A DNA stretch of 64,000 bases from Candidatus Omnitrophota bacterium (GCA_041651115.1 JBAZJY010000002.1:350855-414854); one strand, 5' to 3'. Shown: positions 163-27,303, counted from the stretch's first letter. Notes: a model not told the origin generated them from the sequence alone. A program made the numbers and translations.

Positions 163-165
163 AAA

Positions 166-5516: not shown

Positions 5517-6031
5517 TCGAACTGCATCTGATCCTGATATTCATGATCATCGGCGCGCTTGTGGCAATGGAAGCCAAGGATCTCTTGTCCAGCGTAATCG
5601 CGCTGGGTGCGGTAGGTATGGGGCTTACTTTGGAATTTTTGCTTCTTAGGGCTCCGGATCTGGCGATCACCCAGTTGGTAGTGGAGATATTGTCTCTGGT
5701 TATCCTTATCCAGGCAACAGTGGGTGTTACTATACCGCCGGAAAAAATAAAAGTGAGATTGGGTTATTTTGCTTTCGCGATTATCTTTTGCGCGATATTC
5801 CTCTGGTTTGGCCATAAAGCGCTGGCAGAGTTGCCGGCTTTTGGAAACTCCATAATGAAAATGGGCTCGCAATATCTTGCCGAAGGCTTAAGCAAGACCG
5901 GGGCTGCCAACATGGTCGCGGCAATAATCCTTGATTTCCGGGGCTACGACACTTTAGGCGAGGCAACCATATTATTCGCTTCAGTGATCGGAGTGCTCGC
6001 GGTATTAAGGAATAAGGACAAGAAAAAATGA
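5513..6031 (+). CDS. MnhB/MrpB-domain membrane subunit
   Basis: Hydrophobic with an MnhB-like LLRAPDLAITQLVVE motif; translationally coupled to its neighbours. Confidence 0.6.
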   Translation: MIELHLILIFMIIGALVAMEAKDLLSSVIALGAVGMGLTLEFLLLRAPDLAITQLVVEILSLVILIQATVGVTIPPEKIKVRLGYFAFAIIFCAIFLWFGHKALAELPAFGNSIMKMGSQYLAEGLSKTGAANMVAAIILDFRGYDTLGEATILFASVIGVLAVLRNKDKKK

Positions 6032-6489
6032 AACGCAAGGAAGCGGGAATGTCGTTGATCGTCAAACGGATTACCAAGATCACCGTCAGCCTGATATTTT
6101 TGTACGGTGTTTATATTGTTTTGCACGGCCACCTTACCCCGGGCGGAGGGTTTGCCGGAGGAGTGATCATCGCATTGTCTTTTATTCATCTTGTCCTTGC
6201 CTTTGGCAGGGAAACTGCCGTGAAAAGGCTAAGCGAGGCAGCTGTTTCAATCGTGGAATCCGCGGGAGGCTTGATATTTTTGGGATTAGCGCTCCTGGGC
6301 GTCATTACCGGATCAGTTTTCTTTTTAAACGCGCTTCCTAAGGGCCAACCGTTCCACTTATTCAGCTCCGGCACCATTGTCTTGTGCAATATCGCGATAT
6401 TCTTAAAGGTCGGGGCAGGGCTATTCGCGATATTTATCGCGCTGGCTGTTTTAAGAATCCCCGTTGAAACAGCAAAAGAGGAGAAATAA
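6028..6489 (+). CDS. Small Mrp/Mbh membrane subunit
   Basis: 153 aa polytopic protein within the coupled operon; no specific motif recognised. Confidence 0.45.
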   Translation: MKRKEAGMSLIVKRITKITVSLIFLYGVYIVLHGHLTPGGGFAGGVIIALSFIHLVLAFGRETAVKRLSEAAVSIVESAGGLIFLGLALLGVITGSVFFLNALPKGQPFHLFSSGTIVLCNIAIFLKVGAGLFAIFIALAVLRIPVETAKEEK

Positions 6490-6492
6490 GGG

Positions 6493-6831
6493 ATGAGCCT
6501 TTATGTCCTGTGTCTAATTTTATTCTCTATCGGCATATACTGCCTGTTGGTAAAGAAAAACCTGGTCAAGAAGATCGTTGGCTTCGGCATTGCCGAATAC
6601 GCCTTAAATCTTTTCTTTATCCTTTTGGGTTACCGGTCCTCGGGCAGGGCGCCGATACTGGACCAGCGCGTGACGATCACTAATTTTGTTGATCCCTTGC
6701 CGCAGGCGTTGATCCTTACCTCTATCGTCATAGGCCTGGGCATTACGGCATTAATGGTAGCGCTGGTAGTGCGCATTTATGAGAAATACAAGACGTTTGA
6801 TATAGACGAGATTCGCAGGTTGAAAGGGTAA
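6493..6831 (+). CDS. MrpC/NuoK-like subunit
   Basis: 112 aa, three TM segments, NuoK-like pattern. Confidence 0.65.
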   Translation: MSLYVLCLILFSIGIYCLLVKKNLVKKIVGFGIAEYALNLFFILLGYRSSGRAPILDQRVTITNFVDPLPQALILTSIVIGLGITALMVALVVRIYEKYKTFDIDEIRRLKG

Positions 6832-6833
6832 TT

Positions 6834-8312
6834 ATGCTTCCATTATTTGTGGTTGTGCCGTTAGCTGCCGCGTTTACGATCCCGATTTTATCGGCGCTGC
6901 GCAGGAACTTTGCGCAGTGGCTGGCAATAATCTGCGGCGGGTGGCTGCTCTTGCTTTCTATTAAAAGTATCTCCTGGCTGAAAAGCGGCATAAAAGTTTA
7001 TGCTGTAGGAAACTGGCAGCCGCCGTTCGGTATTTGCATGGAGTTGGACGGCCTGACCGTGCTTATGCTTTTAGTGGTTAACTTGATCGGATTTCTTGCC
7101 ATCCTGTATTCTTTTGATTACGCGAAAAAATATTCTTCGCCCAAGCTGTATTATACGCTGTTTTGCCTGCTTTTGGCCGGATTAAACGGCGTAGTGATCA
7201 GCGGAGATTTATTCAACATGTTTGTTTTTCTTGAGATCGCCTCGATAGCCAGCTATTCTTTGGTTGCCTTCGGCGCTGAAGCGGAAGAACTTGAGGCAGC
7301 GTTTAAATACCTGGTCTTGGGCAGCGTTGCTTCGGCATTTATCCTGCTTGCCATTGCAATGCTTTTGGGCGGCGTTTCCACGTTAAATATGGCGGATATC
7401 AGCCGTTCTTTAAATATGTCGTCTTCGGCTAATCTCATTCTTTTTTCCCTTGCCCTGTTTATCATGGGTTTTGGTTTAAAAACCGGGCTTGTGCCTTTTC
7501 ACGCCTGGCTTCCTGACGCCCATCCTGCGGCGCCCGCGCCTGTATCGGCAATGCTTTCCGGCGTAGTGATCAAAACGCTGGGGGTTTATGCGTTAGTAAG
7601 GGTGATCTTTAATATTATCGGTTTTACTCCGCTTATCGGCTCACTTTTGGCAGGCTTCGGGATCTTATCAATGGTTTTCGGGGCCTTGCTGTCTCTGGGG
7701 CAATGGGATCTTAAGCGGCTCCTGGCATACAGTTCAATCAGTCAGGTCGGCTATGTGATTTTCGGCATCAGCCTTGGCACGCCCCTGGGGATTATCGGCG
7801 GCTTGTTCCATCTTTTTAACCACTCTTTGTTCAAATCGCTGCTTTTCTTTAATGCTGGCAGCCTTGAACAGGCAACCGGCACAAGGATGCTTGATAAATA
7901 CGGCGGTTTATCCAAAGAAATGCCGGTTACGGCAGCTACATCTATGGCAGCTTCTTTGTCGATCATCGGTATCCCACCTATGTGCGGCTTCTGGAGCAAA
8001 CTGATCATTATTATTGCCGCTTTCGAAGCGGGAAATATATTCGGCGCGCTTACCTGCATAGCGGTAGCGGTGATCACACTGGCGATATTTTTAAAATTCC
8101 AGAAGCACGCGTTCCTGCGCAAGGGCAAGGAAGATACGGCTCATATAAAAGAAGCAGGCGTTTGCATGCGTTCTTCAATGATCATCCTGGCGCTGTTGTG
8201 TTTTGCGGTGGGAGTAATGTTCCATCCTTTTGTCAATAAAATCGTAAAACCGGCCGCGGATATGTTGCTTGAAGGCAAAGGCTACGCAAATATAGTATTA
8301 AAAGACAAATGA
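6834..8312 (+). CDS. MrpD/NuoN-like antiporter subunit
   Basis: HAWLPDAHPAAPAPVSAMLSGVVIKTLGVYALVR motif. Confidence 0.8.
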   Translation: MLPLFVVVPLAAAFTIPILSALRRNFAQWLAIICGGWLLLLSIKSISWLKSGIKVYAVGNWQPPFGICMELDGLTVLMLLVVNLIGFLAILYSFDYAKKYSSPKLYYTLFCLLLAGLNGVVISGDLFNMFVFLEIASIASYSLVAFGAEAEELEAAFKYLVLGSVASAFILLAIAMLLGGVSTLNMADISRSLNMSSSANLILFSLALFIMGFGLKTGLVPFHAWLPDAHPAAPAPVSAMLSGVVIKTLGVYALVRVIFNIIGFTPLIGSLLAGFGILSMVFGALLSLGQWDLKRLLAYSSISQVGYVIFGISLGTPLGIIGGLFHLFNHSLFKSLLFFNAGSLEQATGTRMLDKYGGLSKEMPVTAATSMAASLSIIGIPPMCGFWSKLIIIIAAFEAGNIFGALTCIAVAVITLAIFLKFQKHAFLRKGKEDTAHIKEAGVCMRSSMIILALLCFAVGVMFHPFVNKIVKPAADMLLEGKGYANIVLKDK

Positions 8313-8812
8313 AGAATAAACGTTCAAGGGTAGTGACTTTTTTTGTTTGCGTGATCCTCTGGCTGCTTTTGACTTTTCCGCCTGACCGGCAGGAATTATT
8401 TGCCGCCGTATTAGTCGGCCTGCTTGCCGCGCTGTTAATGGGCGATATGTTTACCTCTAAAGCGGGCAGATGGGTCAGCCCGAAGCGCTGGCGCTGGTTT
8501 GCCGTATTTATCGCGGTGTTTATCTGGGAGTGTATTAAGGCAAACTTTGACGTGGCGATCCGGATCTTGAGCCCGCGCCTGCCGATAAATCCCGGAATCG
8601 TTAAGGTAAAAACCAGCTTAAAATCAGAGACCGGCCTGACCTTCTTGGCGAATTTCATTACCCTGACGCCCGGTACTTTTACCGTTGACGTAGACAAGGA
8701 AAACGGTTACCTTTATATCCATTGGATCGACGTAAAAACGCAGGACGTTGAAAAAGCTACGCGGATAATCGTGTCTAAGTTTGAAAGGATCCTAAAAGGA
8801 GTATTTGAATGA
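8309..8812 (+). CDS. MrpE-like subunit
   Basis: LTPGTFTVDVD motif characteristic of MrpE/MnhE. Confidence 0.6.
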   Translation: MKNKRSRVVTFFVCVILWLLLTFPPDRQELFAAVLVGLLAALLMGDMFTSKAGRWVSPKRWRWFAVFIAVFIWECIKANFDVAIRILSPRLPINPGIVKVKTSLKSETGLTFLANFITLTPGTFTVDVDKENGYLYIHWIDVKTQDVEKATRIIVSKFERILKGVFE

Positions 8813-9147
8813 AATTTTTTCGCTGGCTGGCGGGTTTTGTTTTCCTGGCTGCGGCAATTATCTTTATTTTTGTTTTTCTTAAGGTTACCGCGCAGCAGAA
8901 ACTTATACTTTTCCTTTTACTTTGTTTTATGCTTTCCCTGATCCGGATCTTTAAGGGGCCGACAGCGGCAGACCGCTCGGTGGCAACGGACATACTCGGC
9001 ATATTGGTCATTGGTTTCTGCGCGATAATGGAAATATACGGAAACCGTGGATGGTATATGGATATTGCCATTGCCTGGGCGCTGCAGAGCTTTATCGGCA
9101 CACTTGCTTTAGCCAAATTTTTGGAAGGCAGGCATTTTGATGAATGA
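8809..9147 (+). CDS. MrpF-like subunit
   Basis: Small three-TM protein in the MrpF position. Confidence 0.55.
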   Translation: MKFFRWLAGFVFLAAAIIFIFVFLKVTAQQKLILFLLLCFMLSLIRIFKGPTAADRSVATDILGILVIGFCAIMEIYGNRGWYMDIAIAWALQSFIGTLALAKFLEGRHFDE

Positions 9148-9487
9148 GATAATTTCACTTTTGTTCATTATTGTGGGCATTATGTTTGACCTGTTCGGCT
9201 GCCTCGGCCTGCTCAGGCTGCCGGATGTTTATAACCGGCTTCAGGCTTCCACAAAGTGCGTGACCCTGGGGACCTGCAGCATCTTATTCGGGGTCTTCGT
9301 AAAGTTCGGGTTCAGCTCTACCGGTATAAAAGCCCTACTTTGCATCGGTTTTCTTTTACTTACTTCGCCGGTTGCCGCGCACGCGCTTGCCCGGGGATGT
9401 CACTGCGCGGGAATTAAATTATGGAAGCATTCTGTCTGCGATAAATATGAGGAAGACAAGAACAGCGCCAAGGAGCCGTCTGCCTGA
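9137..9487 (+). CDS. MrpG-like subunit
   Basis: PDVYNRLQASTK motif (MnhG-like RLHA.TK). Confidence 0.6.
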   Translation: MMNEIISLLFIIVGIMFDLFGCLGLLRLPDVYNRLQASTKCVTLGTCSILFGVFVKFGFSSTGIKALLCIGFLLLTSPVAAHALARGCHCAGIKLWKHSVCDKYEEDKNSAKEPSA

Positions 9488-10095
9488 TGCGATATCCTAA
9501 ATTACGGGAGTTAAAAGAGGCGATAAGGTCGCTTTTTAGTAAGCCTTATACTACGCGCTTTCCTTATGAGCAGCATAAGCCGTATGAAAGGTTCCGGGGA
9601 AAGCCCGAGTTCCACGTTGATGATTGCGTCGGCTGCACTGCCTGTGTGCAGGTCTGTCCTGCCGGAGCGCTCAGTTTTAAAGACGAAGCCAAGAACGGCA
9701 AAACAAAGCGCGTATTGACCGTGCGTTGGGATATTTGCATTTATTGCGGGCAGTGCGAGGCAAATTGCCTTACCGGAAAAGGGATCGTCCTTTCGCGGGA
9801 ATTTGATCTGGCTACCACCGGGAAAAGGGAAGACCTTTACCAGACCATAGAAAAGGAGGTCTTGCTTTGCGATTGCTGTAAAGAGGTAATTATGCCGCTT
9901 GACCAGATAAAATGGGTGGCGAATAAATTAGGGCCGCTTTGTTTTACCAATGCTTCAGTGATGCTGTTTTATTTGCGGAACTTGAGCCTTGCCTGGAAAG
10001 AAAAGTTTTTCCCCAAGGAAGAAGCGTTCCTGCGTTCAGACCGGGTTAAATTGCTTTGTCCGCGTTGCCGCAGGCAGGCAGTAATTACGTCGTAG
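9487..10095 (+). CDS. 2x[4Fe-4S] ferredoxin subunit (NuoI/MbhN-like)
   Basis: CVGCTACVQVCP and CIYCGQCEANC cluster motifs, plus extra C-terminal Cys pairs. Confidence 0.8.
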   Translation: MRYPKLRELKEAIRSLFSKPYTTRFPYEQHKPYERFRGKPEFHVDDCVGCTACVQVCPAGALSFKDEAKNGKTKRVLTVRWDICIYCGQCEANCLTGKGIVLSREFDLATTGKREDLYQTIEKEVLLCDCCKEVIMPLDQIKWVANKLGPLCFTNASVMLFYLRNLSLAWKEKFFPKEEAFLRSDRVKLLCPRCRRQAVITS

Positions 10096-10747: not shown

Positions 10748-10776
10748 TTGAAAACCGGAATGTAATGTTGTATACT
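10748..10776 (+). promoter_or_regulatory. Sigma70-like promoter (TTGAAA, 17 nt spacer, TATACT)
   Basis: Spacing and hexamers read directly from the sequence. Confidence 0.45.
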
Positions 10777-10782
10777 TTAATT

Positions 10783-11036
10783 GCCGATAAAGGTAAACCC
10801 CGGGAAACCGGGGGGCGCAAAGCCTCAGGCCTAAGTTGCTCTACAAAGCCATATTCTTTGAGGAGGCGAGATCAAGAATAGCTCGGCATGTAGGGGCAAT
10901 ATGGTAGCTGGGTTGCCGAAACGCGAGGCCGCGAGTAGTTTAGATTTTGGCCTTTATCGGCGTTTTCATTTATCCGGCATATAAATTACTAAAAATCCCA
11001 ACAGGATCCCCCCAAGATTTTGTTGGGATTTTTTAT
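10783..11036 (+). ncRNA. Candidate structured small RNA, possibly 6S-like
   Basis: Promoter immediately upstream; long-range closing helix gccgataaagg (10783..10793) with cctttatcggc (10951..10961); intrinsic terminator hairpin plus T-tract at 10995..11040; no convincing ORF. Confidence 0.3.
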
Positions 11037-11095
11037 TTTAAAGTGTTATAATTAAACGAGCTAAGATAGATTATTCATACAGTTAAGGAGCAAAA

Positions 11096-11299
11096 ATGGC
11101 TATATCCGCTAAGTTGGCCCACGAGATAAAGAATTCCCTGGCAATAATCCTGCAGGGAGTTGAATGCTTAAGGAACAATGCCGTTTCCGCGGATGAAAGC
11201 ATGAAAACAGTAGTAAAATACATTGAAGAGGCGGCATTGAAGATTGATAAAGCCATAAAAGGAGGCGAAATTGACAAAGAAAAAGATCCTGATCATTGA
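11096..11299 (+). CDS. Stand-alone DHp (HisKA H-box) domain protein, 67 aa
   Basis: LAHEIKNSLAIILQGVECL matches the histidine-kinase H-box; there is no ATPase domain. Confidence 0.4.
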   Translation: MAISAKLAHEIKNSLAIILQGVECLRNNAVSADESMKTVVKYIEEAALKIDKAIKGGEIDKEKDPDH

Positions 11300-11651
11300 T
11301 GATGAAGAGGCTCTCACCCATCTTGTGAAGATGAATCTTGAAGCAACCGGCAATTATGAAGTAATGGCGGAAAACAGAGGGGCCAACGGGCTTGCAGATA
11401 TAAAATCGTTTAAGCCGGACCTGGTTTTATTGGATATTATCATGCCGGAGATAGACGGTTCGGACGTAGCCAGCCAGATAATGGCAGACCCGGAAACCTC
11501 CGGCACGCCGATAGTTTTTTTGACCGCGATAATCAGGAAAGAAGAGGCCGCGGCAAGCAAGGGGGTTATCAGCGGGTATCCTTTTATCGCCAAGTCCGTA
11601 AGCATTAAAGAGCTTATTGAGTGCATAGAGAAAAACGCGCGCAGGCAATAA
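11271..11651 (+). CDS. Single-domain response regulator (CheY-like REC)
   Basis: ILIIDDEE...DLVLLDIIMPEIDG receiver motifs. Confidence 0.8.
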   Translation: MTKKKILIIDDEEALTHLVKMNLEATGNYEVMAENRGANGLADIKSFKPDLVLLDIIMPEIDGSDVASQIMADPETSGTPIVFLTAIIRKEEAAASKGVISGYPFIAKSVSIKELIECIEKNARRQ

Positions 11652-11657
11652 AGGCCC

Positions 11658-13676
11658 ATGGAGCCCATTGACAAAGACCTGATATTGCGGCAGATCCCGC
11701 TGTTTGAGGCCTTATCGGCCGAAGAGAGCGAGCTGGTCAAGCCGCGGTCGGAGATCATTGAATACGGCAAGAACCAGGTAGTCTATGAAGAAGGCTCGCC
11801 TGCCGACGCATTTTATTGCGTTGTCCTCGGCAGGGTAGTGATCTACACGCGTGACCCATCCGGCAATGAGACAATCCTTGAATACCTGCATCGCGGAAAA
11901 TATTTCGGGATCATTTCGTTGCTTACCAATGACAGCCACTCGGTAAGCGCCCGCACGCTCAACGATTCGGCGCTGCTGGTCATTAAAAAGGAAGATTTTG
12001 ATTTTATACTTAAAAGTATCCCCAGGCTTGCCATAGACTTAAGCCTTACTCTTTCACGCCGCCTAAAAAATAAATCCGTCCACCAAAAAACGATCTTTGA
12101 AAGCACGATCGCCTCGGTATTCAGTTCCTACTCGCAGGCAGGCAAAACCGTTTATGCCCTGAACCTGGCGCTTAGCCTGCATAAGGAATCATGTAAATCG
12201 GTGTTGATCATTGATATCTGCGCCGAAGATGCAATCCACAGCCTGCCGCAGAAACTCGGGGTAAGCGCAGAGTATAAAGTTGTTGACCTTTCGGCGTTAT
12301 CCGGAAGCCCTGCGGATATAGTAAAGGCATCCATCGTAAAGAGCGCTTACGGCGCCGACCTTGTTTGTATAACTTATGCAGCGGAAGACGAATCAAGCCT
12401 GAAAAAACTCCTGGCTGTTTTAAGCCAGATGATAAACGATTATCATTACATCATCCTTGACCTGCCTTCGTCCATGGACCAGTTTGTGCTTGGCGCGCTG
12501 AACCAGTCTGACTTTATACATATATTGACCAGCCCCCAGGCAGTTGATTTGAAGAAGACGCATAACCTCATCAATCGGCTTAAGGATGATTTTCATTTCC
12601 AGGAAGCAAAGATCAGGGTAGTCATTAATGAATACAAGCTTTCCAAGATCAATTACCAGGAGCAGCGGGAGATCGTAGGTTTTAATATCCACGCGACCCT
12701 GCCGCGAATGGCGCTTGAATCATCCGACAGACTGGTGCTTGACGATCCGCTCTCGGAATATGCCAAGGCAGTAAGGAGGATCAGCCGGCAGCTGGCAGAT
12801 AACCTTGTGGGCCTGGCGCTGGGCATAGGCGTGGGTTACGGGTTCTGCCATATCGGCGTGCTTAAGGTTATTGAAGAGGAAAATATCCCCATAGACGTCA
12901 TTTCCGGATCAAGTATCGGTTCGCTGATTGCCAGCCTATGGGCAACCGGCAGGAGCGCTCAGGAAATACTTGAGATCATTAAAGAGGAGTTTAAACAACC
13001 CAAATATACATGGGGCCTTATTGACCTTACTTTTCCGTCGCTGGGTTTTATCAGGGGCAACAAGCTTTACAAATTTCTCAAAAAATATCTAGGCAGTAAG
13101 ACTTTTTACGACGTGCGGCTGCCGCTGAAGATCATTGCCAGCGATATCCGCAATAAGGAGCCGCGCGTGCTTGACAAGGGGCTCTTGATTGACGCGATCA
13201 TGGCAAGCTGCGCGATGCCCGGGGTTTTCCAGCCGTTTAAACTTAAGGAAGAATTGCTGCTTGACGGCGGAGTGATCAATCCCCTGCCGACGGAAGTGCT
13301 GTTTAAAATGGGGATCCGCAAAATTATCGCAGTCAACGTGACTCCCTCAAGGGAGGATATTTTAAAGCAATACGAGAGTTTAAAAGAACAATTTGCCTTA
13401 GCCGGCAAAGAGATCAAAAAAGGCAACTGGTTTAACCTGAAACATTATCTGCAGAAGAAATTCAGGACGAACATCCTGGATATAATCTTTAGCAGCGTTG
13501 AGTTGATGCAGTCGGAGATAATACGCAGGGAAGTCCTGCTTGCCGATGTTGTCCTGCATCCGGATACCAGCGGCCTGCATTGGCTTGAGCTTTACCGCGC
13601 CGTGGAATTTGCCCAGCGCGGGGAAAAAGAGGCGCGCGCCAACCTTGACAGGATCAAACAGATGTTGAATGAATAA
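11658..13676 (+). CDS. cNMP-binding domain / degenerate ParA-MinD-like / patatin-like phospholipase
   Basis: N-terminal cyclic-nucleotide-binding beta-barrel motifs (GKYFGIISLL); central SQAGKT plus ILDLP P-loop-like region; C-terminal GxGxxG, GSSIG (GxSxG) and DGG motifs of the patatin family. Confidence 0.8.
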   Translation: MEPIDKDLILRQIPLFEALSAEESELVKPRSEIIEYGKNQVVYEEGSPADAFYCVVLGRVVIYTRDPSGNETILEYLHRGKYFGIISLLTNDSHSVSARTLNDSALLVIKKEDFDFILKSIPRLAIDLSLTLSRRLKNKSVHQKTIFESTIASVFSSYSQAGKTVYALNLALSLHKESCKSVLIIDICAEDAIHSLPQKLGVSAEYKVVDLSALSGSPADIVKASIVKSAYGADLVCITYAAEDESSLKKLLAVLSQMINDYHYIILDLPSSMDQFVLGALNQSDFIHILTSPQAVDLKKTHNLINRLKDDFHFQEAKIRVVINEYKLSKINYQEQREIVGFNIHATLPRMALESSDRLVLDDPLSEYAKAVRRISRQLADNLVGLALGIGVGYGFCHIGVLKVIEEENIPIDVISGSSIGSLIASLWATGRSAQEILEIIKEEFKQPKYTWGLIDLTFPSLGFIRGNKLYKFLKKYLGSKTFYDVRLPLKIIASDIRNKEPRVLDKGLLIDAIMASCAMPGVFQPFKLKEELLLDGGVINPLPTEVLFKMGIRKIIAVNVTPSREDILKQYESLKEQFALAGKEIKKGNWFNLKHYLQKKFRTNILDIIFSSVELMQSEIIRREVLLADVVLHPDTSGLHWLELYRAVEFAQRGEKEARANLDRIKQMLNE

Positions 13677-14139
13677 TAGGAGGGAAGCCATGAAGGTAAG
13701 ATTTTCAGGTTTAATGCTTGTATTTTGCGCGTTTATCCTTGTCGGATGCTCGACGGTAAAAGAGGCTGCCCGGGGCGTGATCGGGATATCTACAAAGGAA
13801 GTTGAAGAGAGCCGCAAAGACGCGCTGGTAAAGCAATTCAATTATTCGTATAATGATTGCTATGATAAAACCATGGAAGTCTTGAAGTATATCGGCGCGT
13901 ATGTTTATACGGAGGACCCGAAAAAAAATATGATTGCCGTATATGTCTCTGCTTCCGATACCACGGTAGCCGGAGTGTTCTTTAAAAAGATTGATCCTGC
14001 CAATACGCAGGTGGAAGTGGCGTCTCCGAGTACTTATGCCAAGGAATTGATCGCCGAAAATGTTTTTGCCGGGCTTGACGGGACATTGGATATGGAGAAA
14101 GATTTTGTTAGTCCCAATAATACAATTGAGCAGGAATAG
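13669..14139 (+). CDS. Lipoprotein, function unknown
   Basis: Signal peptide with LVGCST lipobox. Confidence 0.5.
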   Translation: MNNRREAMKVRFSGLMLVFCAFILVGCSTVKEAARGVIGISTKEVEESRKDALVKQFNYSYNDCYDKTMEVLKYIGAYVYTEDPKKNMIAVYVSASDTTVAGVFFKKIDPANTQVEVASPSTYAKELIAENVFAGLDGTLDMEKDFVSPNNTIEQE

Positions 14140-14156: not shown

Positions 14157-14390
14157 ATGCCGTATAATGCCAGTCTGGATGAACAGTTGTTTTCCAAATC
14201 ATGGGAATCGGAGAACGGTAAGATCGTTGTCAGCGTATATTCCTACAATAAAGGGACTAAGAAACTGCAGATCGCAAGGGAAGTCAAAGACAGGGAAGGC
14301 AATTTTACCTTTGCCAAGCTCGGAAGGCTTTCCAAGGATGAAGTAGAAGCGGTCTTGCCTTTGATACAGGAAGCTGTAAAAGCCATGTAA
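14157..14390 (+). CDS. Hypothetical small protein
   Basis: ORF with RBS (aagggagg); no motif recognised. Confidence 0.4.
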   Translation: MPYNASLDEQLFSKSWESENGKIVVSVYSYNKGTKKLQIAREVKDREGNFTFAKLGRLSKDEVEAVLPLIQEAVKAM

Positions 14391-14399: not shown

Positions 14400-14891
14400 A
14401 TGTCAGACACTGCCTGTGATATGCTGCAACATTTAAGAGCTCATTTAAAGGGTAAGGTCGTGATACTTGCCGTAGGCAATACCCTAAGAAGCGACGATGC
14501 TCTTGGCCCTGTCTTAGCCGGGCGCATAAAAGACAAGGTGCCCTTTAAGGTCTTTGATGCCGGCCCAACCCCGGAGAATTATTTCGGTAAGATCATCCGG
14601 GAAGCGCCGGATAATCTGGTCGTCATTGACGCGGTTGATTTTGGCGCTAAAGCAGGCGAATTCAGCGTTATTGAAGCCAGCGCCTTAAAGACAGCTAATT
14701 TATTCGCCACGCATAATGCCTCCATTTCATTAGTCAGCGATTACTTGCAAAATAATTTGGCCGCGGATATAATATTTTTAGCGATCCAGCCTAAAACAAC
14801 CGTTTTCGGCGAGAATTTAAGCCCGGAAGTAACCCGCACATTGGATAAATTAGAGGATTGGTTTTGTGAAGCAGGCAAAGAAGAGAGATAG
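14400..14891 (+). CDS. hycI: Hydrogenase maturation endopeptidase (HycI/HyaD family)
   Basis: VVILAVGNTLRSDDALGP...VIDAVDFG signature of hydrogenase maturation proteases. Confidence 0.75.
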   Translation: MSDTACDMLQHLRAHLKGKVVILAVGNTLRSDDALGPVLAGRIKDKVPFKVFDAGPTPENYFGKIIREAPDNLVVIDAVDFGAKAGEFSVIEASALKTANLFATHNASISLVSDYLQNNLAADIIFLAIQPKTTVFGENLSPEVTRTLDKLEDWFCEAGKEER

Positions 14892-16671: not shown

Positions 16672-16746
16672 GCCGAGGTAGCTCAGTGGTAGAGCGCGGC
16701 CCTGAAAAGGCCGGCGTGGGGGGTCCGATTCCCTCCCTCGGCACCA
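16672..16746 (+). tRNA. tRNA-Phe (anticodon GAA)
   Basis: Cloverleaf folded by hand: acceptor GCCGAGG/CCTCGGC, D-arm GCTCAGTGGTAGAGC, anticodon loop CTGAAAA, CCA encoded. Confidence 0.85.
16724..16743. repeat. attL: 20 bp core (tccgattccctccctcggca) inside the tRNA-Phe 3' end
   Basis: Identical 20-mer recurs at 33650..33669. Confidence 0.8.
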
Positions 16747-16752
16747 TATAAA

Positions 16753-16790
16753 AACGAGAGGTTCTCACAAGCCTCTCGTTTTGCTTTATT
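16753..16790 (+). terminator. Intrinsic terminator after tRNA-Phe
   Basis: cgagagg...cctctcg stem followed by a T-tract. Confidence 0.5.
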
Positions 16791-16919
16791 TAGGCGTAAT
16801 TGCTTCATTTTTGAGGCACTTACGCCTTTTTTGTTGCTTTGGATAACTTTGCATGAATTTACAGGGGTTTATATAACGCATTGTCTTAACGTCACCTTAA
16901 CGTCACAAGGAGGATAATT

Positions 16920-18044
16920 ATGAAAATTCAGGAACTGAGGGAAGATTTAACAGTTTTAGGGTTAGGGGATAATCTTAATTTAGCTGTATTGCTATATTTA
17001 TCCGCAACAGCCAGAAAGACCTCGTGCAAAATCTCCGTTCTTGTTTCCGGCCCTGCAGGATTAGGTAAATCTCATCTTGCCAAGAAGATATTAGAATTAT
17101 TCCCGTCAGAAGATATTATCGTAAGCTCCCGGATGACCCCCGCCGGTCTTATGGGGCTTGAAGATTTAAGGGGCAAGATCCTGTTTATTTACGAACGTTT
17201 TGAAGATCCGCTATTTGCTCAATACATTCGGGAGCTGATGACAGAGGGAGAAGTCAGGTATACCACGGCAGACGGCGAACGGTGTCTGAAGGGCCCGGTT
17301 ACCTTAATCGAGACTACCGTTAATCACAACATCATAGGTGCCGAGAACAGGTCGAGGTGTTTTGTGGTCGGCATAAATACTTCTCTCGAAGCAAAAAATG
17401 GAATTCTGGAGAAGCAGAAGGCGTTAAGAACCATGGAAGGTTTTCGTTATCAGGAGAATTTTGATTCTATTCAGAAAAAGCATAGGGAATTCCACCAAGG
17501 GTTAGACGAGTCTTTGTGGGTTATAATTCCCTTTGCGAAGAATATCAAATTTCAAGCCTCTCCGCATCACGCCCCGCGGATACTCCAGCGTGTCCTCAAT
17601 GTTATCGCAACTATAGCATATCTAGACCAGAATCCAACTCGTGTCGTCACTGAAGGCGGCACACGCTACATTGAAGCTACAACGACTGATTTCGAAGAAG
17701 CAAGGCAGCTACTTACCAATATTCCTATTGAAGAAGACGGTTCTCTGCTTTCTTATAAGGAGGTGGAATTTATTAATATGCTAAGAAGTCAAAGAGAGAG
17801 GCTGTCCAGAAAAACCTTTTTTTCGCGCAATGATTTATTGAATGCGTTGCCTCAAGAGAGCCCTTACAGGAGCTATAAGGTTGTTTCTAAAATCCTTGCT
17901 ACCATTAGTAGGCTTGGTTTCATTGATGAACTTCCGCTGCGGGGGATAAAGAATAGGGTAGAGTATCGTTTCAATAAGGAGTTTCCGTATATGTCTGAGG
18001 GGAATTCGATGTTGACGTGCTACTCAACGCTGAGTTTGGCGTAG
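16920..18044 (+). CDS. SF3-helicase-like P-loop NTPase (phage/plasmid primase-associated type)
   Basis: Walker A GPAGLGKS, acidic Walker-B-like FIYERFED, TTVNHN motif-C-like; first gene of the island. Confidence 0.5.
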   Translation: MKIQELREDLTVLGLGDNLNLAVLLYLSATARKTSCKISVLVSGPAGLGKSHLAKKILELFPSEDIIVSSRMTPAGLMGLEDLRGKILFIYERFEDPLFAQYIRELMTEGEVRYTTADGERCLKGPVTLIETTVNHNIIGAENRSRCFVVGINTSLEAKNGILEKQKALRTMEGFRYQENFDSIQKKHREFHQGLDESLWVIIPFAKNIKFQASPHHAPRILQRVLNVIATIAYLDQNPTRVVTEGGTRYIEATTTDFEEARQLLTNIPIEEDGSLLSYKEVEFINMLRSQRERLSRKTFFSRNDLLNALPQESPYRSYKVVSKILATISRLGFIDELPLRGIKNRVEYRFNKEFPYMSEGNSMLTCYSTLSLA

Positions 18045-18080
18045 TTTTGCCATAAGGCAGGGGAAGCAGATCTTGAGTTA

Positions 18081-18815
18081 TTGAAATTAGTTAGGTTAAA
18101 AATTTTAGTTTTGCCAGTTTTCACAAAAGAAAGGAATGACAAAATGGAAGACTTTAGAATTAAATACCGGCCACAAGATATGTCAGAAATTTGGGGCAAT
18201 GAATGTTTGAAAAAAAGATGGGCTGGGTATCTAAGGAGAAAATCTCCGCCTAAATCCATAATCTTGCACGGTAACTACGGCGTAGGCAAAACTACCCTAG
18301 CAAGGATTATTGGAGGGGATATCTTAAAACTCAGAGATAATAATTTTGGTTTATCTGGGGGTTTTCACGAATTGGATTCAACTAAGCTTGATTCTGAAAA
18401 CCTAAGAGGGTTTTTATCTAAGATTACGGGATATGTTCATGGAACTACGGTGTTGTTTTTTGACGAATTCCAAAGGATGCCCCCAAAGGCCCAAGAGATA
18501 CTTTTAAAGCCCGTTGAAGAGGACGACGATCTGTTTTGTGTCTTTGCAACAACGGATATGAACAGCATAGACGGCGGTATCCAATCAAGAAGCGATAAAT
18601 TCATCATCCAAAAACCCTCAATGGCGATCCTGATAGAGAAGCTTACTGAAATAGCCGAAAAAGAGGATATTGAGATTACGAAGGAAGCCTTGGGGTTTCT
18701 CATCGAGTTAGCTGATTATTCTCCACGCGAGTGCTTGGGGAATCTCTATTCTTTTGGGGGTTCCGATGGCATTATTGACGGAAAAGTGGTGCAACAATTC
18801 TTAAACCCTGATTAA
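18081..18815 (+). CDS. AAA+ ATPase, clamp-loader (DnaX/RFC-small)-like
   Basis: HGNYGVGKTTLARII Walker A, LFFDEFQRM Walker B, CVFATTD sensor-1. Confidence 0.6.
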   Translation: MKLVRLKILVLPVFTKERNDKMEDFRIKYRPQDMSEIWGNECLKKRWAGYLRRKSPPKSIILHGNYGVGKTTLARIIGGDILKLRDNNFGLSGGFHELDSTKLDSENLRGFLSKITGYVHGTTVLFFDEFQRMPPKAQEILLKPVEEDDDLFCVFATTDMNSIDGGIQSRSDKFIIQKPSMAILIEKLTEIAEKEDIEITKEALGFLIELADYSPRECLGNLYSFGGSDGIIDGKVVQQFLNPD

Positions 18816-19036
18816 GCAATAAAATTTTAAAATTCTCCGACGAGAAAATAAATTTAACTAAAAAATCCCTTGACAAATATTATCCGCTATGGTTTTTATT
18901 TATTTGTAGATGTGATGTAACATACTGTAAATAAATGAGTTATGTGTCAGGAGCGAAGCAGGGAATTATCAATTTTTCTCTGTAGCAAGAGCAATATAGG
19001 CATTATTAAACTTTTTCTCCGTGAGAGGAATAGATA

Positions 19037-20275
19037 TTGTCCGATTCAAAGAATAGAACTCCCCGGAGCCATATTTATAGGCGTCACAGGATGCACAGCC
19101 AGTCAATCATTGAACTGGAGCAGGCGATGCTGCCCGTCAAAGCGGCGATGCAGGCGCGCGGGCTCAATATCTGCTTGGAAAAATTAGATAGCCTAATCAA
19201 TAAGATTAACCATGAAAAATCAGACATAGAGTCTAACCTTCGCTCAAGCCTCGGCATTAAGGGCGAGATAAATTTCAACAGCTCAAAGGATATCGCGGTC
19301 ATTCTTTCCGCGGCCTTAGGGGTTAAATTGCTTAAGAGCCGCAGCGGTAGATTTATTACGAACAGGCAGGTTCTCCAAAATTTCAATAATCCTTTGACTG
19401 AAACTATTGCCCAATATCGCAACCTGCAAAAGATTTTGTCTTCCCTAACGGCTGTTTATGGAGCAACTGACAAAGCGGAAGCTAAACTATCCTGCATCTA
19501 TACTGATGATTGCCCCAGCGGTCGGCTTTATACCAAAAACTACAACATCCAAGGCATCGGCGAACTCTGCCGTGGTGTCGTTTATCCTGATGAGGGCTGT
19601 TCGTTTATCTTAGCGGACTACGATAGTTTTGAATTGCGAATTCTTAGCGCACTTGCCCACGATACCTATTTTAAAGACTGCTGGTCTAAAGGTTTGGATT
19701 TACACCGTAAAGTAGTCAGTGATATGAAAGGGATTCCCTACGAATCCGTAACTGCTAAGGAACGCAAACTCGGAAAATGTCTCAATTTCGGTCTTGCATA
19801 CGGTCAGGAGCCTCATGGATTGGCGCGTAATCTCCGTATTCCCGTTTCTGAGTCTTCTAAGTTAATGGCTGGCTATAAAAACAAGATTCCTAAGATTGAA
19901 GAATTTAAACGGGAGTCAATCCGTTCAGCGCATATCACCGGCTACACTAAGACTTACTACGGTCGCAAGCGCCTGCTTCCTGAAATCCTATCTTCTAATC
20001 TCCTCGATGCAAAGAAAGCTGAGCGGCAAGTCATTAATACCAAGATCCAAGGCACAGGGGCAGACATTGTTAAATTCAGCTTAGTTAAATTACATAACGC
20101 CGGGTTTAAAATAGACACCATGTTACACGACGGGATTTTAATTACGGTCTCAGACGATAAGGTCGACAGCAGCATTCAGAAGATCAGGGAAATTATGGAG
20201 ATAGAAATTGAAGGGATGAAATTTACTACTTCTATCAAAACCGGGAAGACGTGGGGCCAATGTCACCAATCTTAA
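19037..20275 (+). CDS. Family-A DNA polymerase, polymerase domain only (no exonuclease domains)
   Basis: Motif A ADYDSFELRIL, motif B KLGKCLNFGLAYG, motif C MLHDGIL; TTG start at 19037 or ATG at 19091. Confidence 0.75.
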   Translation: MSDSKNRTPRSHIYRRHRMHSQSIIELEQAMLPVKAAMQARGLNICLEKLDSLINKINHEKSDIESNLRSSLGIKGEINFNSSKDIAVILSAALGVKLLKSRSGRFITNRQVLQNFNNPLTETIAQYRNLQKILSSLTAVYGATDKAEAKLSCIYTDDCPSGRLYTKNYNIQGIGELCRGVVYPDEGCSFILADYDSFELRILSALAHDTYFKDCWSKGLDLHRKVVSDMKGIPYESVTAKERKLGKCLNFGLAYGQEPHGLARNLRIPVSESSKLMAGYKNKIPKIEEFKRESIRSAHITGYTKTYYGRKRLLPEILSSNLLDAKKAERQVINTKIQGTGADIVKFSLVKLHNAGFKIDTMLHDGILITVSDDKVDSSIQKIREIMEIEIEGMKFTTSIKTGKTWGQCHQS

Positions 20276-20293
20276 ATAACAGGCTTAATCAAA

Positions 20294-20427
20294 TTTTTAA
20301 CTTTTTTGGGCTGGCAAAAAGCTACCTGTTTATTGTGTATGGTCATAGTTTGACTTGTGCTGGGAGATTTTATGCTGATAAATGATTTTACCTTTTGAGC
20401 CAAAAATAACCCAACCTATGCCCTGTT
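20294..20427. repeat. 134 bp direct repeat, copy 1
   Basis: Perfect match to 24463..24596; contains promoter-like TTGACT-N17-TGCTGATAAAT. Confidence 0.9.
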
Positions 20428-20439
20428 AGAGTTTTTCTT

Positions 20440-20745
20440 ATGAAACTGTTACCGAAAGAACTGGCACAAAAGATACCTAATCTCTATTCGCAGGAATATA
20501 AGGGCGAAGAGGCGTTGGTTTATATTAAATTATTCGATCCCTGCAGTAACTGGGCATGGTTTGCCACGGAATTTGATGGTGAGGATACTTTTTTCGGATT
20601 AGTGATTGGCCATTTTACAGAACTGGGCTATTTCAGCTTAAAAGAATTAGAGAGTTTTCGCAACCGTCTTGGGCTGGGTATTGAAAGGGATTTGCATTTT
20701 ACACCTATGACTCTAAAGGAAGTGAGGGAAGTAAATGGCTGCTAG
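20440..20745 (+). CDS. DUF2958-like conserved phage/plasmid protein
   Basis: LPxLYSQE...KLFDP..NWAWFATEFDGEDTFFGLV..ELGYFSL.ELE....LGLGIERDLHF pattern recalled from plasmid/ICE proteins. Confidence 0.5.
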   Translation: MKLLPKELAQKIPNLYSQEYKGEEALVYIKLFDPCSNWAWFATEFDGEDTFFGLVIGHFTELGYFSLKELESFRNRLGLGIERDLHFTPMTLKEVREVNGC

Positions 20746-20793
20746 GTCTATATTTTTATTGATAATTATTCTGCCGGTAGTATCATAATTCCT

Positions 20794-21399
20794 ATGACAA
20801 TACAAGAGCGCTACGAAGCATTAAAAGGTAAAGTCGTTAAGAGAAAGAAGGAATTCGATTCCTTCATAAAGATGTTGGAGTCAGAGTCAAGTTGGCTCAC
20901 AAGTCCGGCAAGCACGAGGTTCCATTTGAACAAAGAAGGTGGGCTTTTGGAGCATAGTGTTGGCGTTACTGAAACTCTCCTGAAATTCAGAGAGTTCCTC
21001 GCTCCTCAAATATCAGAGGAATCTTGCGTAATTGTTGGGCTTCTTCACGATGTCGGCAAGATAGGCATGCCTGGCAAACCTAGGTATTTGAAGAATGATA
21101 ACCAATGGGAGATCGATAAACGAGGTATTACCTATAAGATCAACCCCGCAGAGGTAGATATGAATCTTGCCGCACGCAGCTTGTATCTCATTGCAAAATA
21201 TATCCCGCTTTCTGACTCAGAGGCCCAAGCTGTTCTTTATCACGATGGCCAATTTTTAGATTTTAACAAGGAAGTGGCGCATAAAGAGACGCCCTTGACT
21301 CTTTTAGCGCATTGGGCTGATTACTGGACGGCGCATATCTATGAAGAAGGCCGTAGCATTAATGAAGATAGTGATTATTATACTGGAGATAGAAAATAA
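20794..21399 (+). CDS. HD-domain phosphohydrolase
   Basis: H..H, LLHDVGK and a late D motif of the HD superfamily. Confidence 0.7.
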   Translation: MTIQERYEALKGKVVKRKKEFDSFIKMLESESSWLTSPASTRFHLNKEGGLLEHSVGVTETLLKFREFLAPQISEESCVIVGLLHDVGKIGMPGKPRYLKNDNQWEIDKRGITYKINPAEVDMNLAARSLYLIAKYIPLSDSEAQAVLYHDGQFLDFNKEVAHKETPLTLLAHWADYWTAHIYEEGRSINEDSDYYTGDRK

Positions 21400-21401
21400 A
21401 T

Positions 21402-22355: not shown

Positions 22356-22371
22356 AAACTAGAAAGGCAGT

Positions 22372-24596: not shown

Positions 24597-24648
24597 TCTA
24601 AATATATCCAATCTTAATCAGGCACGTGATGCTTCTAAGTAAAAGCCC

Positions 24649-24676: not shown

Positions 24677-24683
24677 TTTATTC

Positions 24684-27293: not shown

Positions 27294-27303
27294 AGGAGGA
27301 GAG

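What the first reader, a model, noticed from the sequence alone, without database searches (positions are those of the whole stretch)
11096..13676. Orphan DHp (H-box only) protein, CheY-like receiver, cNMP/ParA-like/patatin effector: an unusual signalling trio
The 67 aa ORF carries a textbook HisKA H-box (AHEIKNSL) but has no ATP-binding domain. Its stop overlaps the start of a stand-alone REC gene. Directly downstream is a 672 aa protein combining a cyclic-nucleotide-binding domain, a degenerate MinD/ParA-like region and a patatin lipase with an intact GxSxG...DGG catalytic dyad. This could be a phosphorelay or cNMP-gated membrane-lipid remodelling or effector module, conceptually similar to cNMP- or phospho-activated patatin effectors in immune systems.
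Basis: partly seen in the sequence, partly recalled or inferred. Interest (0 to 1): 0.55.

Follow-up and report, generated by a model that had tools for sequence, protein, structure and literature searches.

The report
Histidine-kinase stump in riboswitch-led lipase operon
The 67-residue protein is the leftover phosphate-carrying hairpin of a sensor kinase that has lost its sensor and ATP-binding parts but is still kept intact by selection next to its receiver partner. The conserved core of this Omnitrophota locus is a c-di-GMP riboswitch followed by a three-domain patatin lipase, so the "trio" is a lineage-specific add-on, not a fixed signalling module.

Summary
All three ORFs and their domains are real. 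The 67-aa ORF is a HisKA DHp hairpin and not an Hpt. It derives from a histidine kinase: syntenic relatives carry 485-, 252- and 224-aa HisKA+HATPase_c kinases at the same position, and window-versus-L084 DNA blocks show about 518 nt of CA-domain sequence replaced by 23 nt. A 67–68-aa mini-ORF precedes the receiver in at least four lineages. In three it is shown to be DHp-only; the fourth has no sequence. It is under purifying selection (dN/dS 0.30, p = 0.0016). It keeps His-Glu-x-x-Asn but has lost the H-box proline.

The kinase+receiver cassette is absent from 80 of 80 other loci encoding the same patatin protein, and from one relative at 83% identity. The patatin protein is a conserved Omnitrophota protein (64–85% identity). 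Its CNB domain lacks the canonical cNMP-contacting Glu and Arg, and its ParA-like P-loop lacks the signature Lys.

Best reading: a riboswitch-led lipase operon with an inserted, decaying two-component cassette whose DHp stump probably serves as a CA-less phosphatase or phosphotransfer partner of the receiver.

The parts
10748..10776 (+). Promoter-like site P1 (TTGAAA-17-TATACT) in front of the riboswitch
   Evidence: Consensus scan, 10 of 12 matches. Invariant in the window, L082 and L083, and recurs in other loci.
10782..10920 (+). c-di-GMP-I riboswitch aptamer (RF01051), with a 55-nt insertion in the second hairpin and G-G-C where the consensus has G-A-C
   Evidence: Infernal score 73 bits against a gathering score of 35, E = 2e-12. 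Homologous aptamers lie at the same position in 17 of 19 loci by Rfam and in 52 of 82 by nhmmer.
10783..10960 (+). Outer helix enclosing the aptamer: 10783-10794 (GCCGAUAAAGGU) pairs with 10949-10960
   Evidence: Minimum-free-energy fold. The same helix and sequence occur in all twelve other loci folded.
10991..11039 (+). Intrinsic-terminator hairpin (18 bp, AAAAAUCCCAACA...UGUUGGGAUUUUU) plus U-run
   Evidence: Terminator scan and fold. The stem sequence is conserved across divergent loci. No antiterminator was found.
11023..11052 (+). Promoter-like site P2 (TTGGGA-18-TATAAT with an extended -10, TGTTATAAT). Its -35 lies in the terminator 3' arm.
   Evidence: Consensus scan, 10 of 12 matches with TG. 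The TATAAT-type -10 hexamer recurs at a fixed distance after the U-run in every locus inspected (an extended -10 in most).
11096..11299 (+). 67-aa DHp-only protein (His9, Glu10, Asn13), a relic of a HisKA histidine kinase. RBS AAGGAG at 11085-11090. The tail, residues ~55-67, is read-through over the REC RBS.
   Evidence: Annotated at NCBI as hypothetical protein WC532_05325.
11271..11651 (+). Single-domain response regulator (REC) with D10, D11, D55, T85 and K108. TTG start, RBS AGGAGG at 11260-11265.
   Evidence: Pfam 65.5 bits. Residues checked. Orthologues at 75-81% identity use the same start position.
11658..13676 (+). 672-aa protein: CNB-like domain (~1-140), ParA/MinD-like P-loop domain (~150-385) and patatin-like phospholipase domain (~385-672)
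   Evidence: Pfam. More than 120 clusters at 64-85% identity over the full length. Alignment A1. AF2 model with pLDDT 74. Foldseek matches to PlpD, ParA 3ea0, MinD and CRP.
13690..14139 (+). Conserved downstream lipoprotein (lipobox LVGC). The mechanical ORF starts at 13669; the likely start is 13690, after a GGAGG.
   Evidence: tblastn hit just downstream of patatin in nearly all loci whose sequence extends past the gene. Sequence checked.
14157..14390 (+). Conserved 77-aa protein of unknown function, downstream in the same gene string
   Evidence: 65-84% identity in many loci. No family found.

Best explanation
The locus is a c-di-GMP-riboswitch-led operon of an Omnitrophota bacterium. Its conserved cargo is a cytoplasmic three-domain patatin-like phospholipase with a CNB-like sensor domain, a ParA/MinD-like P-loop domain and a patatin domain.

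In one small clade a two-component cassette, made of a membrane histidine kinase and a single-domain receiver, lies between the riboswitch leader and the downstream genes. In that clade the kinase has been cut down stepwise: 485 aa, then 252 or 224 aa (sensor lost), then 67-68 aa (CA domain lost). The window carries the end state. Its 67-aa ORF retains only the His-bearing helical hairpin (DHp), and the window has also lost the GH1 gene that relatives keep between REC and patatin.

These steps are shown: the homology, the deletion junctions, the conservation of the small ORF and the purifying selection acting on it.

These steps are inferred. The stump dimerises into a four-helix bundle. It still docks the adjacent REC. 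Having kept His-Glu-x-x-Asn but no ATP-binding domain, it works as a dedicated CA-less phosphatase or reversible phospho-sink/phosphotransfer partner for REC~P. The REC would be phosphorylated by another kinase or by acetyl phosphate.

The conserved signal input for the lipase is c-di-GMP acting on the leader RNA, and not the two-component pair. The direction of the switch is unknown. The lipase is probably further controlled through its CNB-like and P-loop domains by ligands other than cAMP or cGMP.
For: Relic origin:
- The contig of the closest patatin relative (85% identity) carries the 485-aa HisKA+HATPase_c kinase P0131 at the same position, overlapping the REC gene by the same 29 nt and ending in a similar tail, GEEKDPDR against KEKDPDH.
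- L084/L085 and L086 carry 252- and 224-aa DHp+CA kinases behind the same riboswitch, terminator and TATAAT, followed by REC and, where the contig reaches that far (L084/L085), GH1.
- blastn of the window against L084 gives three colinear blocks. About 518 nt of CA-domain sequence is replaced by 23 nt.
- No CA remnants remain.

Real and selected:
- Intact 67-68-aa ORFs with ribosome-binding sites occur in the window, L082 and L083. A 68-aa ORF lies 15 nt upstream of REC on 17 further contigs.
- dN/dS between L082 and L083 is 0.30, against 0.10 for REC and 0.09 for patatin. Fisher p = 0.0016.
- A neutral ORF would stay open in only 2.2% of simulations.
- A8, H9, E10, N13, L15 and A16 are invariant.
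- The AF2 model is a helix-turn-helix, H5-28 and H34-54, with pLDDT 80. The top Foldseek hits are kinase DHp domains, including GacS DHp.

Phosphatase precedent:
- The Thr/Asn at His+4 is required for HisKA phosphatase activity (PMC3510030).
- HK853 lacking its CA domain shows phosphatase activity in vitro (cited in PMC7005713).

Riboswitch:
- 73 bits in the window.
- Present in 17 of 19 loci by Rfam and 52 of 82 by nhmmer. It directly precedes patatin where no GH1 is present.

Cassette is accessory:
- No tblastn hit for the 67-aa ORF or REC in 80 loci.
- L087 (83% identity) lacks the cassette.

Lipase domains.
Against: - No biochemical data exist for any part of the locus.
- The small ORF evolves about three times faster than its neighbours, has lost the conserved H-box proline, and is absent from most lineages. 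All of this also fits a gene on its way out.
- p67 itself scores below Pfam's HisKA gathering threshold (22.3 against 26.9 bits).
- No partner kinase or stand-alone CA protein lies in the 64-kb window, so the phosphate source for REC is unknown.
- No antiterminator could be found, and a conserved promoter-like element follows the terminator. How, or even whether, the riboswitch controls the downstream genes is not established.
- The count of independent CA losses rests on pairwise identities, not on a resolved phylogeny.
Confidence: 0.55

Rival explanations
1. The 67-aa ORF is a functionless remnant of a decaying histidine kinase. It may be translated, but it is a transitional stage on the way to complete loss of the cassette. 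The REC is then an orphan or also on its way out.
For: - There is a graded series of 485, 252, 224, 68/67 and 0 aa at one position.
- The conserved H-box Pro is lost only in the CA-less forms.
- dN/dS is three times higher than in the neighbouring genes.
- The tail is accidental read-through over the REC RBS.
- The cassette is absent from 80 of 80 other loci.
Against: - The ORF is intact, with a start codon and RBS, in at least four lineages that have three different 3' junctions.
- dN is significantly lower than dS in a pair that share the truncated state (p = 0.0016).
- A neutral ORF would stay open only about 2% of the time.
- The His, Glu and Asn are invariant.
Confidence: 0.25
2. One reading: DHp, REC and the CNB/ParA/patatin protein form one phosphorelay-gated effector module. 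Phosphorylated REC, with the DHp as phosphodonor or phosphatase, switches the lipase on or off through its ParA-like or CNB domain.
For: - The three genes are adjacent, on the same strand and tightly spaced: a 29-nt overlap and a 6-nt gap.
- The patatin domain is closest to RssA, by NCBIfam. Its E. coli gene neighbours the REC protein RssB (own knowledge).
- Some ParA/MinD relatives, such as TadZ/CpaE, are fused to receiver-like domains (own knowledge).
Against: - The direct REC-patatin adjacency is unique to the window. Every other cassette-bearing relative has GH1 between them.
- The patatin protein is 64-85% conserved in at least 80 loci with no DHp or REC.
- REC homologues at 66% identity pair with an ordinary CHASE4-PAS kinase in an unrelated locus.
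Confidence: 0.1
3. The DHp stump is a decoy. It forms heterodimers with the DHp of another histidine kinase elsewhere in the genome and blocks it, in the manner of RetS acting on GacS. It does not act on the neighbouring REC.
For: - It is a helical hairpin of the DHp type.
- Among the best structural matches is the GacS DHp in complex with RetS, 7n0e, TM 0.70-0.78.
- It has no CA domain of its own.
Against: - The Foldseek E-values are not significant for so small a fold.
- The His-Glu-x-x-Asn catalytic residues would not need to be invariant in a pure decoy.
- No candidate target kinase lies in the window.
Confidence: 0.07
4. The 672-aa protein is a nucleotide-activated abortive-infection lipase of the CBASS CapV type, and the locus is a defence system.
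For: - There are weak hits to the CBASS cGAMP-activated phospholipase (NCBIfam NF041079, 32 bits against a cut-off of 200) and to PADLOC phospholipase effector models.
- CapV is a cGAMP-activated patatin lipase (PMC6042076).
Against: - All hits are far below the family cut-offs.
- No cyclase or other defence gene is adjacent.
- The gene is near-universal among the retrieved Omnitrophota loci, in fixed synteny with Mrp-like, PG-binding, HycI and SNF genes. That is the opposite of a patchy defence island.
Confidence: 0.03

Closest known systems
Isolated DHp domains studied in vitro: EnvZ 'domain A' (67 residues; own knowledge, Zhu et al. 2000 PNAS) and HK853 lacking its CA domain (cited in PMC7005713)
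   Same: A His-bearing HisKA helical hairpin of about 60-70 residues with no ATP-binding domain. It keeps the His+1 acidic and His+4 Asn/Thr residues. The engineered fragments dimerise and dephosphorylate the cognate regulator.
   Different: Those are laboratory truncations. Here the truncation arose naturally, recurs in several lineages and is maintained by selection. The H-box Pro is lost and helix 1 starts only 8 residues before the His. No activity has been measured.
Spo0B and ChpT histidine phosphotransferases (own knowledge)
   Same: Kinase-derived DHp four-helix-bundle proteins that cannot autophosphorylate and shuttle phosphate between receiver domains.
   Different: Spo0B and ChpT keep a degenerate CA-like domain and are about 190-250 aa. 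p67 has no CA remnant at all. No second receiver is encoded nearby.
RetS-GacS DHp-DHp interaction (PDB 7n0e)
   Same: A DHp hairpin used as a protein-interaction module. It is a structural top hit.
   Different: RetS is a full hybrid kinase acting on another kinase. Nothing here indicates a target kinase.
c-di-GMP-I (GEMM-I) riboswitches, Rfam RF01051 and variant RF03167
   Same: The full-length aptamer match is well above the gathering score. It lies in a 5' leader and is followed by an intrinsic terminator.
   Different: - The terminator stands alone, with no detectable antiterminator.
- It is immediately followed by a conserved extended -10 promoter-like element.
- The aptamer is enclosed by a sequence-conserved 11-12-bp outer helix.
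- The downstream gene is a patatin lipase. No paper in the searchable library links that class of gene to this riboswitch.
NTE/PNPLA6-type and RssA/PlpD-type patatin-like phospholipases
   Same: The Ser-Asp dyad (GxSxG, DGG) is present. The patatin fold matches PlpD with TM 0.82. The best NCBIfam hit is RssA. As in NTE, CNB-type domains are fused N-terminally (own knowledge). JGI labels homologues 'NTE family protein'.
   Different: - It is below the RssA equivalog cut-off (97.7 against 272 bits).
- It has an extra ParA/MinD-like domain between the CNB and patatin domains.
- The oxyanion motif is IGVGYG where PlpD has GGAARG.
- The Glu and Arg of the CNB phosphate-binding cassette are replaced.
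CapV, the cGAMP-activated patatin phospholipase of CBASS (PMC6042076)
   Same: A patatin lipase linked to cyclic-dinucleotide signalling.
   Different: CapV is activated directly by the nucleotide and sits next to its cyclase in a mobile defence island. Here the dinucleotide link is an RNA leader, the gene sits in conserved synteny across the retrieved Omnitrophota loci, and only weak sub-threshold similarity exists.

Membership tests
HisKA DHp domain (Pfam PF00512) | Profile match at or above the curated gathering score | tested here: inconclusive
   p67 scores 22.3 bits against a gathering score of 26.9. Its orthologue P0124 (L082) scores 30.2 bits, above the threshold. phmmer gives E = 4.3e-10 to the DHp of a HisKA+HATPase_c kinase.
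HisKA DHp domain (Pfam PF00512) | Phospho-acceptor His with an acidic residue at +1 and Asn/Thr at +4, on helix 1 of a helical hairpin | tested here: met
   H9, E10 and N13 are invariant in 17 aligned sequences. AF2 gives a hairpin, H5-28 and H34-54.
HisKA DHp domain (Pfam PF00512) | Conserved Pro at His+5 (H-E-x-x-N-P-L) | tested here: not met
   The position is Ser in p67 and Gln in both p68 orthologues. It is Pro in all 14 CA-containing homologues.
Sensor histidine kinase (autophosphorylating) | HATPase_c (CA) ATP-binding domain in the same polypeptide | tested here: not met
   There is no HATPase_c hit. tblastn finds no CA remnant in the locus. The CA region of L084 is replaced by 23 nt.
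Hpt phosphotransfer domain | Match to the Hpt profile (monomeric four-helix bundle) | tested here: not met
   The Pfam scan at E <= 0.1 lists only HisKA and a weak PcfK hit. The model has only two helices.
Response regulator receiver (PF00072) | Profile match plus the acidic pocket, phospho-acceptor Asp, and conserved Thr and Lys | tested here: met
   65.5 bits against a gathering score of 30.2. D10, D11, D55, T85 and K108 are present. There is no output domain.
Cyclic-nucleotide-binding domain (PF00027) | Profile and fold match | tested here: met
   74.3 bits against a gathering score of 27.5. Foldseek matches CRP and PKA CNB domains.
Cyclic-nucleotide-binding domain (PF00027) | Phosphate-binding-cassette Glu and Arg that contact cAMP/cGMP | tested here: not met
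   Aligned to PKA RII-alpha and T. thermophilus CRP, FGE...R[SA]A becomes FGI...HSV. I85 and H94 are invariant in the family.
ParA/MinD (SIMIBI) ATPases | Fold/profile match, P-loop GK[ST] and Walker B Asp | tested here: met
   AAA_31 scores 30.9 bits against a gathering score of 27. Foldseek TM is 0.75 to 3ea0 and 0.76 to MinD 4v02. G162, K163 and D268 are invariant.
ParA/MinD (SIMIBI) ATPases | Deviant Walker A with the signature Lys and Gly-Gly (xKGGxGK[ST]) | tested here: not met
   Aligned to FlhG 4rz3, GKGGVGKS corresponds to SYSQAGKT. The signature Lys is replaced by Tyr158, which is nearly invariant.
Patatin-like phospholipase (PF01734) | Profile match and the Ser-Asp dyad (GxSxG, DGG) | tested here: met
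   109.5 bits. S419 and D536 are invariant. TM is 0.82 to PlpD.
Patatin-like phospholipase (PF01734) | Glycine-rich oxyanion motif with a basic residue (GGxxR/KG) | tested here: not met
   GGAARG of PlpD aligns to IGVGYG. Y394 is invariant.
RssA equivalog (NCBIfam NF007623) | Score at or above the curated cut-off | tested here: not met
   97.7 bits against a cut-off of 272.
c-di-GMP-I riboswitch (RF01051) | Covariance-model score at or above the gathering score, in a 5' leader on the gene's strand | tested here: met
   73 bits against a gathering score of 35, covering model positions 1-87. Homologous hits are found in 17 of 19 related loci.
c-di-GMP-I riboswitch (RF01051) | Binds c-di-GMP and changes expression of the downstream gene | not testable with these tools
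   A terminator is present, but no alternative antiterminator pairing was found. The aptamer carries the GGC variant nucleotides, and some orthologues score best with RF03167.
CBASS / anti-phage phospholipase effector | Match above threshold and an adjacent cyclase or defence genes | tested here: not met
   NF041079 scores 32 bits against a cut-off of 200. PADLOC gives only generic phospholipase models. The neighbours are PG-binding, lipoprotein, HycI and SNF genes.

The most novel reading that the evidence does not exclude
The DHp-only mini-protein would be a naturally evolved, stand-alone partner of a response regulator, acting as a phosphatase or histidine-phosphotransfer protein. It would have arisen more than once by whittling a histidine kinase down to its receiver-docking hairpin. 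That would make it a previously unrecognised class of two-component auxiliary protein.

In the same operon, c-di-GMP would control a conserved Omnitrophota membrane-lipid lipase twice: through the leader RNA, and through the non-canonical CNB-like or P-loop domain of the enzyme.
Probability: 0.2. Interest if true: 0.65.

Novelty: new variant of a known kind. Interest (0 to 1): 0.45.

Why it matters
- **Kinase reduction.** If the DHp stump is active, it shows that a histidine kinase can be reduced in nature to a roughly 60-residue receiver-docking module that still has a job. That would change how the many "incomplete kinase" fragments in genomes are read. It would also give a minimal natural system for studying the CA-independent phosphatase and phosphotransfer reaction.
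- **A testable handle on c-di-GMP signalling.** The conserved link between a c-di-GMP riboswitch and a CNB/ParA/patatin lipase offers a way to test what c-di-GMP controls in Omnitrophota, an uncultured phylum of very small and possibly host-dependent bacteria. It points to membrane-lipid turnover as an output.
- **An unusual leader.** The composite of terminator plus promoter is an uncommon expression platform and worth testing.
- **Limit of the claim.** The three-gene "signalling trio" as proposed is not a conserved system.

Tried and rejected
- **The search for related loci with the single 672-aa sequence in genome contigs.** An alignment query in metagenome contigs then gave 80 loci.
- **Word-indexed homologue search with p67.** It found only the protein itself. 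The exhaustive phmmer search was needed.
- **Search for an antiterminator.** I used minimum-free-energy folds of the full and truncated leaders and a complementarity search against the terminator 5' arm. Nothing convincing turned up, so the ON/OFF logic is unresolved.
- **Foldseek of the p67 model.** DHp domains rank top, but the E-values are not significant. The DHp assignment therefore rests on sequence and synteny.
- **afdb50 fold search.** Unavailable.
- **PADLOC and NCBIfam.** No defence-system or named-family membership.
- **Literature searches.** I searched for the riboswitch variant, for Omnitrophota with c-di-GMP or patatin, and for CNB-patatin proteins. Nothing describes this locus.
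- **Search for another kinase or receiver in the 64-kb window with local profiles.** None found.
- **Frameshifted single gene.** I considered and rejected the idea that p67 and REC are one frameshifted gene. Both have their own strong RBS, and orthologues keep them apart by 15-122 nt.
- **Minus-strand ORFs over 11083-11353.** Rejected as frame shadows.


Full report
**Observation**

Pfam gives these results:
- 67-aa ORF: HisKA, E = 1.4e-4, 22.3 bits, below the gathering score of 26.9.
- 126-aa ORF: Response_reg, 65.5 bits.
- 672-aa ORF: cNMP_binding, AAA_31/CbiA and Patatin.

Both small genes have strong ribosome-binding sites, AAGGAG at 11085-11090 and AGGAGG at 11260-11265. The small ORF overlaps REC by 29 nt in a different frame. 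Its last ~13 residues are therefore translated from the REC RBS and start region. The source is a Candidatus Omnitrophota MAG with a 579-kb contig, and the 67-aa ORF is annotated there as a hypothetical protein.

Directly upstream lies a c-di-GMP-I riboswitch aptamer at 10782-10920 (RF01051, 73 bits against a gathering score of 35). It is preceded by a promoter-like site at 10748-10776. It is followed by an 18-bp terminator hairpin with a U-run at 10991-11039, and then by an extended -10 promoter-like element at 11023-11052 whose -35 lies in the terminator's 3' arm. An 11-12-bp outer helix, GCCGAUAAAGG pairing with CCUUUAUCGGC, encloses the aptamer.

**The 672-aa protein is a conserved Omnitrophota protein**

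More than 120 sequence clusters are 64-85% identical over the full length, at 665-690 aa. In an alignment of 32 of them, S419, D536-G-G, G162-K163, D268, I85 and H94 are invariant and Y158 is nearly invariant.

The AF2 model has pLDDT 74. It matches PlpD (TM 0.82), the ParA-family ATPase 3ea0 and MinD (0.75-0.76), and CRP/PKA CNB domains.

Each regulatory domain departs from its family's ligand-binding consensus:
- The CNB phosphate-binding cassette has Ile and His where PKA and CRP have the Glu and Arg that contact the cyclic nucleotide.
- The ParA-type deviant Walker A, GKGGVGKS, reads SYSQAGKT, so the signature Lys is replaced by Tyr.
- The patatin oxyanion motif GGAARG of PlpD reads IGVGYG.

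cAMP/cGMP gating therefore cannot be assumed. The catalytic dyad is intact.

**Neighbourhood conservation**

An alignment-based scan of metagenome contigs returned 80 loci. tblastn shows a fixed order: PG-binding lipoprotein, a gap, patatin, lipoprotein, a 77-aa protein, then HycI. None of the 80 loci has a hit to the 67-aa ORF or to the REC.

In most loci the gap holds a ~405-aa GH1 glycosidase gene that abuts patatin. In six loci the gap is only 290-500 nt with no gene.

The riboswitch is conserved in that gap. Rfam finds it in 17 of 19 loci tested, some scoring best as the GGC variant RF03167. An nhmmer profile finds it in 52 of 82 loci. Most misses lack upstream sequence, and about a dozen have no room for it. 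Wherever the riboswitch is present, the same leader recurs in front of GH1, patatin or the kinase gene: P1, outer helix, aptamer, a terminator (sequence-conserved in nearly all) and a TATAAT-type promoter-like element. I found no antiterminator, so the sign of regulation is open.

**Origin of the 67-aa ORF**

Only the closest relatives carry a two-component cassette, always between the leader and GH1:
- The contig of P0002 (patatin 85% identical) has the 485-aa HisKA+HATPase_c kinase P0131. It overlaps a 126-aa REC by the same 29 nt and ends in ...GEEKDPDR, compared with ...KEKDPDH in p67.
- L084/L085 and L086 have 252- and 224-aa kinases that are just DHp+CA.
- L082 and L083 (81% and 80%) have 68-aa HisKA-only ORFs.
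- Seventeen further contigs carrying a REC 78% identical have a 68-aa ORF 15 nt upstream of REC.
- L087 (83%) has no cassette at all.

phmmer of p67 against 1.84 billion representatives gives 22 hits. Those inspected match through a kinase DHp, the best being P0122 at 61% identity, E = 4.3e-10. blastn of the window against L084 shows three colinear blocks: the promoter, the DHp and the REC start. About 518 nt of CA-coding DNA is replaced by 23 nt, and 144 nt of N-terminal region by 51 nt. No CA remnant survives. The ORF is thus a deletion relic of a kinase. The 3' junctions differ between the window and L082/L083, and the window's nearest patatin relative still has the full kinase. This suggests more than one CA loss but does not prove it.

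**Is the relic functional?**

The ORF is intact with a start codon and RBS in all lineages seen. Between L082 and L083, which share the truncated state, dN/dS is 0.30, against 0.10 for REC and 0.09 for patatin. Fisher p = 0.0016. A neutrally evolving 68-codon ORF would stay open in only 2.2% of simulations at that divergence.

A8, H9, E10, N13, L15 and A16 are invariant across kinases and stumps. The Pro after the Asn is present in all 14 CA-containing homologues and lost in all three stumps. AF2 models a helical hairpin, H5-28 and H34-54, with a disordered tail. The top Foldseek hits are kinase DHp domains but are not statistically significant.

Published work shows that the His+4 Asn/Thr is the phosphatase-specific residue of HisKA kinases (PMC3510030). 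It also reports that HK853 without its CA domain has phosphatase activity in vitro (cited in PMC7005713). EnvZ domain A is the classical 67-residue precedent (own knowledge).

I therefore favour a CA-less phosphatase or phosphotransfer partner of the adjacent REC, whose D10, D11, D55, T85 and K108 are intact. A dying remnant is the main rival. No other kinase or receiver lies in the window.

**Verdict on the trio**

The DHp/REC pair is an accessory insertion in a small clade, and in every relative it is separated from patatin by GH1. The direct REC-patatin adjacency in the window results from a GH1 deletion. More distant REC homologues (66% identity) pair with an ordinary CHASE4-PAS kinase elsewhere. 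There is therefore no conserved evidence that the receiver controls the lipase. The defence-effector analogy is also unsupported, with sub-threshold hits only and housekeeping synteny.

The conserved regulatory link is the c-di-GMP riboswitch in front of the CNB/ParA/patatin gene. I could not find this described in the searchable literature.

Noticed in passing
window 16672-33600: tRNA-Phe (16672-16746) is followed by a low-GC block (35-44%, against ~47% elsewhere). The block carries AAA ATPases, a family-A DNA polymerase, an AbiGi-like protein, a REase-ARP nuclease, an HD phosphohydrolase, an HTH_17+ResIII helicase and a tyrosine integrase (32505-33572). It is probably an integrated mobile or defence island at the tRNA gene.
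   Followed up: partly
window 10991-11052; also L002-L087 leaders: The riboswitch terminator (stem sequence-conserved in most loci) is immediately followed by a conserved TATAAT-type promoter-like element (extended -10, TGnTATAAT, in most loci), with its -35 in the terminator 3' arm. No antiterminator pairing is detectable. This is an unusual expression platform whose logic is unexplained.
   Followed up: partly
window 10782-10920 versus L007, L023, L036, L067: The aptamer's second hairpin carries a 55-nt insertion in the window. Orthologous aptamers range from ~89 to ~149 nt. Both GAC and GGC variants occur at orthologous loci, and some score best with RF03167.
   Followed up: no
window 11652-11657 versus L082 2775-4000: The GH1 beta-glucosidase-like gene (~405 aa) lies between the leader or REC and patatin in most relatives. 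It is missing from the window, leaving a 6-nt REC-patatin gap.
   Followed up: partly
window 14157-14390: A 77-aa protein is 65-84% identical across dozens of loci and matches no family (only a weak YtfJ-like C-terminal hit). It always lies in the same gene string downstream of patatin.
   Followed up: no
window 13669-13690: The lipoprotein ORF listed from 13669 more likely starts at 13690, after a GGAGG RBS. That gives MKVRFSGLMLVFCAFILVGC with a lipobox, so it does not overlap the patatin stop.
   Followed up: yes
L082 2040-2100 and 2308-2393; L083 1990-2064 and 2272-2393: Between the TATAAT element and the 68-aa ORF, and between that ORF and REC, these relatives carry short hairpin-like or repeated inserts (ATCCTGAGG...GAAGGATC; repeated CTTTCTGCGG motifs). 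The inserts are absent from the window.
   Followed up: no
window 1-10095 and 14400-14891: A long same-strand string of Mrp/Mnh-like antiporter or hydrogenase-type membrane subunits and a 4Fe-4S protein precedes the locus, and a HycI-type hydrogenase maturation protease follows it. This synteny is conserved in relatives.
   Followed up: no
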